A program made the position numbers and the translations under genes. Under the pieces are notes generated by a model. That model saw only the letters and a program-made list of their open reading frames with translations. It ran no database searches and was not told the origin of the DNA. From Eledone cirrhosa (Eukaryota), in contig OZ024740.1 of NCBI GenBank assembly GCA_964016885.1, positions 412,114,001 through 412,178,000 on the forward strand: a stretch of 64,000 bases of DNA, in the 5' to 3' direction. Positions within the stretch are counted from its first letter, which is position 1. Each line of letters starts with the position of its first letter. Shown here piece after piece: positions 11,447 to 62,890 of this stretch.

Positions 11447-11694
11447 TATATGAAAGACGTAAAATAAGAAAATTTTAAAAATTAAAAATTAACTTACTAA
11501 AATTTTCACTCCAACTAATTAGTTTCTGTAATGGGATAAAGATAGCTACGCAATGTAACCATCGAGAATTCTCGATGTTTACATTGCGTAACTATCTTTA
11601 TCCCATTACAGAAACTAATTAGTTGGAGTGAAAATTTTAGTAAGTAAGTTAATTTTTAATTTTTAAAATTTTCTTATTTTACGTCTTTCATATA
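11447..11694. repeat. Near-perfect palindrome (~120-bp arms, centre GAATTC at 11566-11571) carrying the 3' half of a hammerhead
   Basis: Arms are complementary except for a few substitutions and a 4-bp duplication. GAAA-CTAATTAG-TT at 11611-11624. Confidence 0.9.
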
Positions 11695-11823
11695 ATTGTT
11701 CTGCATCCCCCTGCATTGAACCACCTAGGTACTATGACATAACTTATGTATTTGCTAGCATTAGTGTACATCTGTACGCATATGCTGGTAAATATACTAA
11801 TTCTCTCTCTCATATATATATAT

Positions 11824-12249
11824 GTAAATATCTTTAAGTCGTTTGGAAGCTTCGACAATGAAAATGGGTAAATCTCCGGGTAACAAGGTCCGGTGGTGGA
11901 GAGAGAGAGATGTAAGTGGGTGTACGTTGAGATGCGTGGTGTGTATAAGATGTGTGAGATGTGTAGAACGAAGGGAAGAGTATAAAGGATAAAATAAAAA
12001 TAACAACACAAGAGAGAGTTACCTTGGGAGAGATTTAAATCTCTCCCAAGGTAACTCCCTGTTGTATTATTATTTTTATTTTTATCCTTTATACTCTTCC
12101 CTTCATTCTACACATCTCACACATCTTATACACACCACACATCTCAACGTACACCCACTTACATCTCTTTCTCCACCACCGGACCTTTGTTACCCGGAGA
12201 TTTACCCATTTGCATTGTCGAGGCTTCTAAACGACTTAAAGATATTTAC
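11824..12249. repeat. Palindrome with ~213-bp arms and no spacer (centre 12036/12037)
   Basis: ccttgggagagattt|aaatctctcccaagg; arms complementary with scattered mismatches. Confidence 0.92.
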
Positions 12250-13608
12250 TTATTGTTCCACAATGTTTCAAGCAAACTTCAATATTCTCATATATATATA
12301 TATATATATATATATATATATATATATATATATATATATATGGTATACTAATATATTATTATTTGGAGCAAATATACTCATTTATAGACTGTTTATCTCA
12401 ATGCAATGAGAGCCACACAGAGCTGTTACACATTATAATTGAATATTGCCTCCAAGAGATGTATCCACTCCGTTTATATTTACAGTTGATACCATCCCAT
12501 GGTACTATTGGTTACGCAATTTCATGTTGTCGATCTCTAAGCCAGCTCTAATAGATAAATGTCTATACATTGCTCAAGCAACAACGAATCCTTCGAATAC
12601 TGTTTTTCTCATTGGCTCCAAGTGGCTCAATCATGCGAAAGATAGGCATATAAAGTGAAAATAATGTTAATTAAACGTAAATGAAAAACGATTTAACCAA
12701 TGATGTTTTTTTATTAGACTAGAGATGTATAGCACACACATGAGTTTTGTTTACAGCTTAGTAGATTGTGTAGCTGTAACTTTTACGTGTGTTGACTAAA
12801 GATACAGTTAAATGCCAGTGTTACCATTCTTGCGTTCCACCATTCTGTCAAGAGGTTGATACATAATTTATTAGGTCATCTAATTTCCGACTTTATTTTA
12901 CACACTAATGTGTAGAAATTGATTTGGCGGTCAAAAGCAGCAATGAGTTCAATACAAAGCTTTCAACTTCGTTATAACAACAATATTTATTGAAGCAATA
13001 AAACTACGTCTTGTATTGTATCGATATTCATGTACAAGAATATCATAAAGCGTTATTCGAAAGTCATGAAACATTGACCCAGAGAATTAGAAATGGAACG
13101 AGTTAATATAAACTAATTTTCCTGGAATACAAAACACACTAAACCATAAAATACTATTTCGTATATTTAATGAGCTGTCTGGTTTAAACCTGTTTAACGG
13201 AATATACATTTGGTAGACGAGATATTGTTTATGGGATTGAACAAACTATCCAGCATCGATAAATTGACCAAATTACGTATGTATAATATCCCAACATATT
13301 GTTTTCTGTGATAAAACAGGAAAATGTAAAATATAATCGTAAGAATAAACAACAAATCTGCACACCTGATGCTGTGACAGTGACAATATAAAAAACTGTA
13401 TTGTGAATTTAGGACTGTTGTTGCTCCAAACGACCTCCGAAGGTGGAAGAAAAAAAAAGAAACAACTTATAAAAAAACGAATTAAGAAAATAGAAGTCTT
13501 CTGAGTACTGCGTGTCTAAAATAAAAGATAATCGACGTATATACGAAACTATGACTACACATAATCACAAGCACTTCCCCACACAAAAACATTAACATAC
13601 ATATACAT

Positions 13609-58932: not shown

Positions 58933-59556
58933 TGTCATACTCTACAGCGTTAAACCTTGAACAACACATAAAAAAGATCAATACTAGAAGGTTAAACGAA
59001 AACACTAAGAACCTAAGTACAAAGAACACAAAAAAAAACAGTAGACAATACACTACAGAACATAAATAAACCACACCTAAGTTCGTCCGCAATACTACTC
59101 CAGAGAAAACCCAACGTACACAACTGTAACTGCACCTATCCTGACAACTGCCCCCTCGGCAATAACTGCCTGGAAAAAAATATTATTTATAAGTGTACCA
59201 TTAAATCCGGAGGCAACGAGTGGTATTACGTGGGATCAACGGCAACATCGTTTAAATCTCGATTATATAGGCATTCTTACTCAATAAAACACCAGAGCCA
59301 AAGAAATGTAACAACTTTAGCAGAAAACGCTTGGACACTCAGGGATAGCGATCAAAAGTTTACCCTAAAATGGGAGAAATTAGCTAAAACCCAAAGCTTT
59401 TCCAGGAGCCAAAATTTCTGCAAATTGTGTAATCTTGAGATTTATTACATAATCACACACAAGAAGAAATTGCTGAATAACAGAATTGAACGAACATTAT
59501 TCTGCCGTCACAGAACTAAAACCCTTTTTTCCCACTACAAGCCGAATATTACATAA
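58933..59556 (+). pseudogene. Inverted PLE fragment encoding the GIY-YIG C-terminus to its natural stop
   Basis: YYVGSTATSFKSR...CKLCNLE...LLNNRIE...CRHR. Positions 58933-59393 are the reverse complement of 57720-58180. Confidence 0.88.
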
Positions 59557-60410
59557 AAGAGGGACATCCCCCAACTATATAAACCTCAATCTAGTTAGAA
59601 AAATATAAAAACAATCTCTTCTCAACATATATTAATAACCTTAAATTACCACACTAATAATGGAAAGATATGCTGACGAGAATAGGTGCAAATATGCGAT
59701 AATGAATGTGTCTAAAAACGTCCATAAGTATGTATATATATGTGAAAATGTATATAAATAAGTAAATATATATATATGTTTGATGTGTATAGTTAGATGT
59801 AAGTGTATTCATGTATTAAAGTGCTTATATATATATATATATATGTGTGTATATATATATATATATATAGATGTGTATGTATATGTATATGTGTACACAT
59901 AGACTAGAGTATGTATGTATATATGTGTGTGTCTATACGTGTGTATATAAAGATAAGTTGAGTATGAAAATGTATACACATGAACGCGTATGTATGTACA
60001 TGAATACACGTGTGTATATATATATGTATGTATGTGTATATGTATGTAAGTATGAATATGTGAATGTGAGTATATGTATTTTGTAGAGGTGTGCAAATAT
60101 ATTTGTGTATGAATGCGTGGGTGAAAGGATACGTACACTTGAAAGAAAAATTTAAGTCTGAATGTTAATTAAGTGCAAACACAAAACCAACCACGCATAT
60201 CTTTACTATCTCTAATCCTTCTATAAATTTAGAAAAATAACCAATAATATATTCTATAAAAATGTCAAAACAACAGATGGGAATCTAATTACTCACTGCC
60301 ACCAAAAATTCTCACTGCTATCAAAAAACCACTCCCTCAACTATTCTTCTAACAACTTCACCCCTCCCTCCTAATATTCTCTATAAAAACCAAATAGGTC
60401 CTCAGTAATA

Positions 60411-60466
60411 TTATTCTGATGAAATGACAGTAAATAATAACATTGAAATATTGAATGTCTGCATAA
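60411..60466 (+). ncRNA. Hammerhead-like motif in the PLE pseudo-LTR (copies at ~57482-57537(-), 40635(+), ~40250-40305(-))
   Basis: CUGAUGA-AAUG..CAUU-GAAA-UAU-uga-AUG-UC; helix I is weak. A second half-motif, GAAA-CACGUG-UC, lies at 60515-60526. Confidence 0.6.
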
Positions 60467-62890
60467 CTAAAACTTTGTAGATAGCAGCTGTTTTCAGGTT
60501 ATGTAACTGTTATAGAAACACGTGTCAATAAATTCCTTTCAACTAAACTGTATCCATTCAAATCTTTCTATTTTTCTCCGGATTACTTTTGGAACTACAA
60601 CTGGAACCGTAGAGCAAACTCTACGTGAGCCTCAATCTACTGTGTGTAATATTTATATTACAACACAACGGAAAATACTGTATATATATATATAACATTA
60701 AAAGTTAGTCAAAATCTCGATTGAGTGAGTACACACGAGTTGATATCTGTAATTGAGATGAAACATTCGAGAAAGATGACTTTCTGATTCATGTAACAGT
60801 CTGATGAGCTTTTGATTCCAGAGTCGGGCCCGATCATTACAGATAAAAACTTGAACTGATACATCGCAAAATCTGCGTCACGCCAGAATGAATTTTCTGA
60901 AAATTCGACAGCTCGTCCATCATTATATATATATATATATATATATATATATATATATATATATATATGTGTGTGTGTGTGTGTGTGTGTGTGTGTGTGT
61001 GTGTGTGTATGTGTGTGTGTGTGTGTGTGTGTGTCCTGTGTGTGTGTGTGTGTGTGTGTGTGTATAATTGTTGACTTAGTACGCACACGTTTTTCTGCTC
61101 TTAAAGTGTTAAGTTCCTTCCTCTTCCTATCACTACTTTTCTACTTCAACTGTTATATCTCATTTTATCTTTTGAAGGACTAGTTTCCGAAACGTAAAGA
61201 CTCCTTTTCTTATTATATCAAGTGTTACACTAATATATTTCTTTATGGTACTGTCTTATTTGCATTCATGGTCCTTGAGCAAGCGGCTTTTTTTCCAGGA
61301 CGACCATTAAAGAATGCACATGTATACACTCTAATCATATATTTGCCATGTTGCCCAGAAATAGTAAGAAGCAAGCAAAAATGGCTGTTGGAGGCTGTGA
61401 GCATTGACGTCCCTATACATTTGGGGCACTCCTGGAAACATATAGCCGTCTATTCTCTTTTGAATTAAAGGTCTGAATGTCATGTGTGGTGATATCCTTA
61501 ATGATTTTATATGTATCTCCACACATTGTTACCTTGTTCAGTATTTGTGTCAGTTTAGATATGATGTTCCGCAATCTCCAACAGTCTGTTTGTGTTTCCC
61601 ACTTAGTTCAATGAGCGACATATCTTTTCGTTTATGAATCTTCACTGTCAGAAAATTCGGTGAGTGTGTGGTTAGTTTTAGTTGAATTTGTGTGTCTGCT
61701 TGATATTTTGTTGTAAAAGTCTGGATTTTGTTATAGAGATTTGTGGGTTGGTTGTGTTAATGTTGATATCGTTGGTGATAGTTACGGTGTGGATGTTTGA
61801 GTTGATGGTGTTTCAGGTGTGTCCGTATTAGATTTGTCGGTGTGTTTTCCGAGTTATATAGAGTGTGGTTTGTGGTGGGACAAATATTTTGGTTTGGAGA
61901 ATTCCTCATCTTCCCTGCGAGAGGAGGCAGCTGTTTCTGATGAATCAGATTCCGATGGTAATGGGTGGGCGATTGTGCGAGTGACTGTCTATGTGTTTGC
62001 AAGACGCGGAGATAGGAAGAGCTATATTGGAAGATGCCCATTTTGGATTTGTTGTATTATTTTCTGTTATTTTTCTTCTTCATGGTGCTAGTGGTGGCAG
62101 AGTTGCCGCTACCACTGCTGTTAATGTTACTGATTGTTATTGCTGAGATTAGTGTGTTGCTGTTTTCGTTGTTGTACATCGATAGTGATGTTGCATTTGT
62201 TGTCGTTGGGGCTATTGTTTTGCCGACAAATCCACTTTACAAATAAAACAAATATATGTTCTGTACAGTCAACTACTATCAATCCTGAACGCATCGTGTT
62301 ACTCTTATTTATATCCTTATAGAATACGCTTTTTAGATAACATCTAGATGACCAATGCGATTTGATCATGTTGCCTTTGAAATATTCGATAAATGTAGTA
62401 CGTACCTGGCAGAGAGATGGAAATGCCTGTTCATTTTTTTTAGGATTTTACACCTTCTCCATTATCTGCTATCCCACTTTAATGGATGAACTTTCGGAAG
62501 TCTCCAATTGTATTGGAGAATTTCAGTATTAATTTGTTGTACCTTTATTGCTTGGCTCAGGACTAAAGATCTGTTAAGGTGAAAACCTGTGGAAACACAC
62601 GCCTAGCATTGAGCAAACACCCTGATCACCGTTAAGGAACATTTGATAATAATATTAATTTCATTCATATGTATAAAAGAGAGTATACGTTGCTACAGGT
62701 GTTACAAATGCGAGCTGTTACCTGAAAAGAATAACAAGGATACCAGTAATAAACTATACACACATACATATATATACATACACACATACATATATGTATA
62801 CATGTATGGACACATACATATATACTTACAAACATACATAAATATATAAATATTTGTATGAAGGAGTGTATGTTTTGTGTATGCATATAT

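What the first reader, a model, noticed from the sequence alone, without database searches (positions are those of the whole stretch)
11447..60783. Polarity rule: hammerhead sense strands read outward from the palindrome centre
At 11.5, 23.5, 24.9/26.6, 38.4, 40.5 and 57.5/60.4 kb the motif is minus in the left arm and plus in the right arm. At 26.9, 34.2 and 51.2 kb the left arm is an inverted copy of the sequence 3' of a plus-strand core. I found no inward-pointing case. Inference: the palindromes form by cDNA fold-back or twin priming at the 5'-truncated end during reverse transcription, leaving element 3' ends facing the flanks. A read-through transcript would also pair its own ribozyme with the antisense arm and silence it.
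Basis: partly seen in the sequence, partly recalled or inferred. Interest (0 to 1): 0.72.

Follow-up and report, generated by a model that had tools for sequence, protein, structure and literature searches.

The report
Back-to-back Penelope retrotransposon insertions
The mirror-image repeats in this window are pieces of Penelope-type jumping genes joined back to back, a layout already described, and their two outer ends almost always fall at two different fixed sites, which likely means both cut DNA strands start a separate copy of the same RNA rather than one copy folding back on itself.

Summary
The outward polarity is real and holds outside the window: in 800 kb of unselected DNA, eight families gave 43 head-to-head and 7 tail-to-tail pairs, and 40 against 0 where no (TA)n lies between the arms. 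The rule belongs to Penelope-like elements (PLEs), not to hammerheads. 34.2 and 38.4 kb lack a CUGANGA core, and one inward case exists at 24.7 kb. The 40.5 and 57.4-60.7 kb sites are one young PLE with Hydra-clade motifs (773-aa ORF). Head-to-head layout and a one-sided tail are in print (PMC3846280, PMC8557442). Added here: one arm ends at a proximal site and the other at a distal site in 51 of 53 pairs. The inner ends vary largely independently by up to 2.5 kb, and some inverted pieces hold only the tail. Fold-back at the truncated end cannot make these. Twin priming from both nicked strands at the two start sites shown in vitro (PMC11167929) can. Ribozyme pairing with the antisense arm is predicted but looks like a by-product, and transcription is untested. 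The scan reached a similar twin-priming reading before on other DNA.

The parts
11447..11797 (.). Family B head-to-head insertion: palindrome 11447-11694, left arm ends at the proximal site, right arm carries a tail to about 11797; 3' half of an HHR only; family forms tandem units of about 540 bp elsewhere
11820..12290 (.).
23364..23795 (.). Family H palindrome 23364-23707 plus tail 23708-23795 on the right; HHRs at 23410-23464(-) and 23607-23661(+)
24704..24850 (.). Inward (tail-to-tail) duplication of 36-45 bp of the family I tail across (TA)n; the exception to the rule
24801..26692 (.). Family I head-to-head insertion: tailed left arm 24801-25208, right arm 26381-26692 with HHR 26590-26637(+)
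26714..27203 (.). Family F insertion: left arm 26714-26838, spacer with a mutated plus-strand HHR (26987-27020), right arm 27043-27166 and tail
34156..34300 (.). Old family E-like palindrome, tail on the right; no hammerhead core
34706..34876 (.). Family E palindrome 34764-34876 with the tail on the left arm; no canonical HHR seen
38264..38695 (.). Family C palindrome 38264-38651 plus tail on the right; only a degenerate hammerhead look-alike
40149..40896 (.). Family A (PLE with Hydra motifs): perfect 638-bp palindrome 40149-40786, left arm ends at proximal site P, tail 40787-40896 to distal site D; HHRs 40194-40300(-), 40635-40741(+)
48671..48790 (.). Family E tail-only inversion: antisense arm ending at the proximal site joined to a sense tail fragment, no overlap between the arms
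51068..51462 (.). Family D palindrome 51068-51405 plus tail on the right; HHR core cut at 51212; the family's 3' UTR follows a C-terminal GIY-YIG frame in longer copies
57378..60680 (.). One family A insertion: antisense arm from P (57378-57710), jump to antisense RT-EN coding part (57719-58913), duplicated junction, then sense arm 58932-60680 (EN end, 3' UTR, HHR, tail to D)
57248..60783 (.). Outer arms 57248-57350 / 60681-60783: inverted duplication of single-copy flank about (TA)n, not element sequence
27675..28456 (.). (TA)n-centred inverted duplication of single-copy host DNA (second class of palindrome; similar ones at 27516-27679 and 47452-47626)

Best explanation
The palindromes are head-to-head insertions of Penelope-like retroelements in (TA)n tracts, likely made when both nicked target strands each prime reverse transcription on the same element RNA, one at a distal start site (D) and one at a proximal site (P) about 40-110 nt upstream. 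Each antisense cDNA is tied by its 5' end to a flank, so the element's sense strand must read outward on both sides; the outward hammerhead polarity follows because the ribozyme lies a few tens of bases upstream of P (45 nt in family A). The two cDNAs stop at mostly independent points and their free 3' ends are joined through short microhomology or slipped, templated inserts (inferred: host end-joining). Where both cDNAs reach the same preferred stop, a zero-gap palindrome results. Shown here: PLE identity, polarity, one-tail rule, independent inner ends, junction features, shared variants between arms. Inferred: two priming events per insertion, one shared RNA, the end-joining pathway, the cause of the symmetric centres.
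For: Family A unit is 3595 bp with a 773-aa RT + C-terminal GIY-YIG ORF. Of 36 insertions mapped, 30 are head-to-head, 0 tail-to-tail, 6 have no inverted arm. The inverted arm ends exactly at P in 25 of 26 readable cases (4 unreadable: region edge or withheld bases); the D end was forced by the query. In six other families, 51 of 53 clean pairs have one tailed and one untailed end (42 full, 9 tail-only; p=2e-13 against 50%); 24 pairs of families A and B and 16 pairs with an unclassified end were left out of 93. Either arm can be the longer: D arm 13, P arm 9, symmetric 4 of 26; inner ends of the 22 asymmetric pairs are not significantly correlated (rho 0.24, p 0.27). Eight tail-only inversions printed show no pre-P match in the inverted piece. 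Junctions: 9 of 19 insert-free ones overlap by >=3 nt (6% expected, p=5e-7); 10 of 29 carry 1-33 nt inserts, and the five longest copy an adjacent arm end. Arms share 33 variants (16 private to the insertion), while only 5 of 26 arm differences occur elsewhere in the family. Raw reads of two other DNA runs show (AT)n joined at P in 98 and 116 reads. In vitro, an anole PLE protein nicks and extends both strands and starts at two sites that bound the tail (PMC11167929, parts 1-2 of 4 read).
Against: Symmetric centres are in clear excess (4 of 26 within 2 nt, 0.08 expected), which independent truncation does not give; the 40.5 centre sits on a native 8-nt self-complementary word, as fold-back predicts. 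PMC11167929 reports no difference in start site between the two strands, so the strict one-P-one-D pairing is not explained by that assay. One family A insertion (L170) has an inverted piece that does not end at P. Six of 36 insertions have no inverted arm. Shared variants between arms also fit fold-back or later gene conversion. The family C and A samples come from searches that favour near-identical, long copies. No biochemical test was run.
Confidence: 0.78

Rival explanations
1. One cDNA folds back on itself at its truncated 3' end (or an antisense template self-primes) and copies itself, giving the inverted arm.
For: Gives the same outward polarity; proposed in PMC3846280 (passages read). 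Excess of exactly symmetric centres; native self-complementary words at the 40.5 and 11.5 centres; arms share private variants.
Against: Cannot supply the tail when the untailed arm is longer (9 of 26), cannot give non-overlapping tail-only inversions, needs loops of up to 2.5 kb and a stop exactly at P in 25 of 26 cases. Three of the four symmetric family A junctions have <=1 nt overlap or inserted bases. Preferred 5' stops (family C 186-191 nt from P in 14 of 27 arms, family E 53-64 nt in 32 of 47) also occur in copies with no inverted arm.
Confidence: 0.12
2. Hybrid: both strands prime at P and D, but the longer cDNA snaps back and its sense copy anneals to the other cDNA, or two sibling RNAs from one source locus are used (dual priming, perhaps as a ribozyme-paired dimer).
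For: Keeps the one-tail rule and explains symmetric centres; predicted protein dimer (PMC11167929) and dimer-type HHRs with palindromic helix III loops (PMC4209133 passages; loops seen).
Against: No feature here requires it; two unrelated RNAs are disfavoured because arm differences are rarely family polymorphisms.
Confidence: 0.25
3. Inward and outward forms arise equally, and selection keeps outward ones because they silence the ribozyme in read-through RNA.
For: Folding predicts loss of ribozyme helices in the palindrome (40.5 helix II p 0.96 alone vs 3e-73; 26.6 helix I 0.85 vs 1e-40); in the outward layout the antisense arm is transcribed first on either strand.
Against: Very young, near-identical insertions are already 30 to 0. 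A family without a visible HHR obeys the rule. The fixed outer ends explain polarity mechanically.
Confidence: 0.03
4. The palindromes are long-read fold-back or assembly artefacts.
For: The 40.5 palindrome is 100% identical over 638 bp, and no read or contig laid spans its centre.
Against: Arms end at fixed biological sites and differ by up to about 25% in older copies. Independent contigs show antisense-to-sense joints, and raw reads show the P end.
Confidence: 0.02

Closest known systems
EN+ Penelope-like element insertions with inverted pLTR and tail (Arkhipova et al. 2013, PMC3846280; Craig et al. 2021, PMC8557442 Fig. 2 legend; passages read)
   Same: Head-to-head stated as the most frequent arrangement; inverted 5'-truncated copy next to the 5' end; tail often at one end only; AT-rich or microsatellite targets; HHR in the pLTR.
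   Different: Tails here are about 40-110 nt (30-40 in those papers). Those passages call the tail optional and favour self-priming or nuclease resolution; here the tail is near-strictly on exactly one end and the arms behave as two separately primed cDNAs.
Hydra clade of C-terminal EN+ PLEs (Craig et al. 2021, section 11 read in full)
   Same: Family A ORF has RWK, DKT, CxCX5C, CxxC and CxH motifs, C-terminal GIY-YIG-like end, canonical HHR, (TA)n insertion.
   Different: Unit is 3.6 kb (paper: generally <3 kb); HHR helix II holds about 90 nt; no tree was built here. Family D has a different C-terminal EN, so the rule is not limited to Hydra.
PAc (Poseidon) in vitro TPRT (Frangieh et al. 2024, PMC11167929; parts 1-2 of 4 read)
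   Same: Both strands nicked and extended; two internal RT start sites bounding the tail; AT-rich target; HHR cleavage not needed.
   Different: No strand difference in start site was reported, and inverted repeats are not discussed in the parts read; the genomic pairing of one P end with one D end is not addressed there.
LINE-1 twin priming and dual priming (PMC2837659, passages read)
   Same: Second nicked strand primes a second cDNA; inverted arm; microhomology at the inner junction.
   Different: L1's second primer anneals at variable internal sites and gives non-overlapping arms with a deletion; here the second start is fixed about 40-110 nt from the first, so arms overlap and form palindromes.
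Non-LTR retrozymes (bioRxiv 10.64898/2026.07.22.740005; listing abstract start and term search only)
   Same: Family B is a tandem unit of about 540 bp with an HHR and PLE-type ends.

Membership tests
EN+ Penelope-like element (family A) | Single ORF with RT and GIY-YIG endonuclease | tested here: met
   773-aa ORF with YRDD and IYKC..YYVG; 299 homologues, one annotated PF00078. Direct Pfam scans gave no family, so domain names rest on motifs.
EN+ Penelope-like element (family A) | Partial tandems (pLTR), inverted 5'-truncated copy, tail | tested here: met
   tandem units in L166, L169, L172, L176, L178, L179, L183; 30 of 36 with inverted arm; 111-nt tail
Hydra clade | RWK, DKT, CxCX5C linker, CxxC and CxH beside E and N | tested here: met
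   motifs at residues 37, 119, 631, 729, 757; definitions
Hydra clade | CCHH motif absent from the EN core | tested here: inconclusive
   Read by eye in the translation (one Cys in the core); no alignment to reference PLEs
Hydra clade | Canonical HHR and (TA)n insertion | tested here: met
Hydra clade | Phylogenetic placement with named Hydra families | not tested
   No Repbase reference set was available; no tree built
Type I hammerhead ribozyme (23.5, 26.6, 40.5, 57/60 kb) | CUGANGA, GAAA, NUH site, helices I-III | tested here: met
   no Rfam hammerhead appears among the 150 of 266 rows shown
Type I hammerhead ribozyme (34.2 and 38.4 kb) | CUGANGA core | tested here: not met
Type I hammerhead ribozyme | Self-cleavage | not testable with these tools
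   needs an assay
L1-type twin priming | Two cDNAs primed from opposite strands, joined at an inner junction with microhomology | tested here: met
   Structural signature only:
L1-type twin priming | Variable internal second priming site with deletion between non-overlapping arms | tested here: not met
   Second site fixed at P in 25 of 26; arms overlap except in tail-only cases
L1-type twin priming | Target-site duplication | tested here: inconclusive
   Both flanks are (TA)n, so a duplication cannot be read
MITE / DNA transposon with terminal inverted repeats | Fixed palindromic unit copied whole | tested here: not met
   Each copy has its own centre and arm lengths

The most novel reading that the evidence does not exclude
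Two-strand priming is the normal PLE insertion route, not an accident: a dimeric PLE protein starts one cDNA at each of two fixed RNA sites on one transcript, one per nicked strand, and host end-joining fuses the two truncated cDNAs. Every round thus tends to write a hairpin into the genome; such arms cover about 7% of the sampled DNA and would be a main source of the double-stranded RNA behind octopus hyper-editing.
Probability: 0.45. Interest if true: 0.65.

Novelty: new member of a known kind. Interest (0 to 1): 0.4.

Why it matters
How PLEs make their tandem and inverted structures is called undefined in PMC8557442, and the explanation in PMC3846280 is self-priming on an antisense template. 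The one-tail rule, independent inner ends and tail-only inversions turn this into a direct test in the existing in vitro system: each product should carry one P-started and one D-started cDNA on opposite strands. It also gives a simple annotation rule (two outer ends, one tail). Inverted-repeat arms with gaps up to 1 kb cover 7.1% of the 800 kb sampled (not all are PLE). PMC5625713 (passages) reports unusually high dsRNA potential and hyper-editing in octopus and heavy editing of Penelope in lizard, so a link is plausible but untested. The polarity itself is not new.

Tried and rejected
Rfam scan showed only microRNA-like chance hits from hairpins and microsatellites in the 150 of 266 rows shown. 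The inverted-repeat tool was swamped by (TA)n. Pfam found nothing in fragments or the full ORF. A genome search with a short untailed family A query returned nothing, so P-ended solo copies of family A are under-sampled. My idea that the ribozyme's helix II hairpin seeds fold-back at 11.5 kb was rejected: the centre lies on a 6-nt native word, and family B 5' ends spread widely. Centres at the ribozyme cleavage site were not seen in the window's palindromes. The first oriented library gave false inward calls because one seed ran into a neighbouring element; it was rebuilt. End-polarity calls fail for very short arms and for families with 5' stop hot spots (2 disagreements among 40 doubly called). 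The spacer-length walk stops early in diverged arms and was not used. The helix II register typed for 23.5 kb was wrong and is ignored; short-fragment folds gave z-scores of -1.9 to +0.3, no support by energy alone. No RNA holder listed, so expression, silencing and editing were not examined. Arm differences showed no A-to-G excess (1 of 26). No ORF could be tied to families C, E, F or I. Literature searches for an explicit PLE twin-priming or one-tail statement found none; subscription papers are outside the library, and supplements of the papers read were not opened.
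Full report
Setting. The window is G000:C1:412114001-412178000 in a 3.0-Gb genome rich in (TA)n.

Observation. Self-BLAST finds all the named inverted repeats. A descriptor for type I hammerheads found about 100 motifs at score >=11 in 864 kb and none at that score in reversed DNA. In the window, full ribozymes lie at 23.5 (both arms), 26.6 (+), 40.5 (both) and 57.5/60.4 kb (both), minus on the left and plus on the right. At 11.5 kb only the 3' half is present. At 26.9 kb the core is mutated and at 51.2 kb it is cut; intact family copies fix their direction. 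At 38.4 and 34.2 kb there is no CUGANGA core; these point outward only by their end structure. One inward repeat exists: 36 bp of the 24.9 element's tail copied across (TA)n at 24719-24836.

Out-of-sample test. I took 800 kb without regard to content: 200 kb on each side of the window and 200 kb from each of two other contigs. All 14 zero-gap palindromes with a strict ribozyme point outward. Of 97 zero-gap alignments, 54 were called outward, 2 inward and 41 could not be oriented; the two inward calls are outward on inspection. A separate count of neighbouring opposite-strand 3' ends in eight families gave 43 head-to-head and 7 tail-to-tail, and 40 against 0 when no (TA)8 lies between the arms. 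With the window and the searched loci the totals are 100 and 10. The tail-to-tail pairs look like separate insertions in the same or nearby (TA)n tracts.

What the elements are. The 40.5 and 57.4-60.7 kb sites belong to one young family with at least 40 copies identical over 331 bp. Its unit is 3595 bp with a 773-aa ORF carrying RT and C-terminal GIY-YIG motifs and the RWK, DKT, CxCX5C, CxxC and CxH motifs listed for the Hydra clade of PLEs. Pfam did not recognise it, and no tree was built. Longer copies tie family D (51.2) to a different C-terminal endonuclease and family H (23.5) to a Hydra-like frame. Family B (11.5) forms tandem units of about 540 bp. Families C, E, F and I share the end structure, but no ORF was tied to them.

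The ends. Each family has two fixed 3' ends, a proximal P and a distal D, about 40-110 nt apart, both followed by (TA)n. In family A, 36 insertions were mapped: 30 head-to-head, none tail-to-tail, 6 without an inverted arm. The right end was forced to D by the query; the left arm ends exactly at P in 25 of 26 readable cases. In six families with no such forcing, 51 of 53 clean pairs have one tailed and one untailed end, on either side; 24 pairs of families A and B and 16 with an unclassified end were set aside from 93. Raw reads of two other DNA runs show (AT)n joined at P (98 and 116 reads).

The centres. In 26 family A insertions the D arm reaches further 5' in 13, the P arm in 9, and 4 are symmetric within 2 nt. 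Differences reach 2.5 kb and the 22 asymmetric pairs are not significantly correlated. When the P arm is longer, the D arm's tail cannot be a copy of it. Nine pairs have only a tail fragment as the inverted piece; the eight that printed show no overlap with the other arm, and contigs of an independent run show matching joints into the tail. Junctions carry more microhomology than chance (9 of 19 insert-free junctions >=3 nt; 6% expected) or 1-33 nt inserts (10 of 29); the five longest inserts copy an adjacent arm end. The two arms share 33 variants, 16 private to the insertion, and only 5 of 26 differences are family polymorphisms, which points to one template.

Mechanism. These facts fit two priming events per insertion. 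Both target strands are nicked in (TA)n, one 3' end starts at D and the other at P, and each cDNA is fixed to its flank, so sense reads outward. The truncated 3' ends are then joined, probably by host microhomology-mediated end-joining (inference; the polymerase theta signature is recalled knowledge). PMC11167929 shows in vitro that a PLE protein nicks and extends both strands, starts at two sites bounding the tail and does not need ribozyme cleavage. Against a pure version: symmetric centres are in excess (0.08 expected, 4 seen), and the 40.5 centre is on a native 8-nt self-complementary word. Shared stops could explain this, since families C and E have strong 5' stop hot spots that also appear in copies without an inverted arm, but fold-back is not excluded for this minority. 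The in vitro work saw no strand preference for start sites, so why P and D pair so strictly is open.

Silencing. Folding predicts that ribozyme helices vanish in the palindrome, and in this layout the antisense arm comes first on either strand. This follows from the geometry. A family without a visible ribozyme and brand-new insertions obey the rule equally, so selection for silencing is not needed. Transcription was not examined.

What is known. PMC3846280 states that head-to-head is the most frequent arrangement, that a tail is optionally present on one inverted pLTR, and proposes self-priming (passages). PMC8557442 draws the same layout and calls the mechanism undefined (passages and section 11). 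PMC4209133 describes PLE hammerheads (passages). L1 twin and dual priming are described in PMC2837659 (passages). My searches found no paper stating the one-tail pairing or twin priming for PLEs. Earlier AI notes of this scan reached similar readings on other DNA; they were read after my own counts and are not independent support.

Verdict. The polarity rule is real but known and is a property of PLE insertion, not of the ribozyme. The useful addition is the quantitative case for two-strand priming over fold-back. Interest 0.4.

Noticed in passing
window 27516-27679, 27675-28456, 47452-47626, 57248-57350/60681-60783, 24704-24850: A second class of palindrome: inverted duplications of 35-190 bp of flank centred on (TA)n; two tested are single-copy in the genome. 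Snap-back of a nicked, self-complementary (TA)n end would explain them; this is the likely true fold-back product and the source of close inward cases.
   Followed up: partly
window 27562-27581 and 28081-28100: The same 20-nt word followed by (TA)n sits at the centre of two neighbouring flank duplications and nowhere else in the 1.1 Mb held.
   Followed up: partly
window 38490-38540 and loci L137-L160: Family C carries a hammerhead-shaped stretch with changes at three core positions in the copies read (read by eye); it may be a dead or variant ribozyme.
   Followed up: no
families B, D, H: Several 5' truncations fall at the first bases of the CUGANGA core (D: 3 of 40 at one position; H: 2 of 12; B: 4 of 65 within 137-140 nt of P), hinting at an RT stop there.
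   Followed up: partly
window 40635-40741: Family A hammerhead has an 88-nt helix II region that folds as one long hairpin; Rfam rows shown did not list it.
   Followed up: partly
window 57710-57719 and 58893-58932: Within one insertion the antisense arm jumps about 940 nt along the element with a 15-bp duplication, and the centre has a 16-bp duplication: template jumps with slippage.
   Followed up: partly
window 14590-16414: Fragment of a LINE-type RT (CR1/L2-like by recalled motifs) between two kilobase-long (TA)n tracts.
   Followed up: no
window 52600-53450 (-): Decayed RT-like frames, possibly another PLE remnant; no Pfam hit.
   Followed up: no
window 25253-25394, 53700-53830, 54696-55144, 60798-60895: SINE-like repeats; 60798-60895 has many copies at 81-91% identity.
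   Followed up: no
L062 region (G000:C1 about 411966800-411969500) and L047-L048: Tandem arrays of 310-bp and about 500-bp hammerhead units with an inverted arm at the 5' side, the same outward layout in retrozyme-like repeats; first array lies at offset 52.8-55.5 kb of the upstream 200 kb.
   Followed up: no
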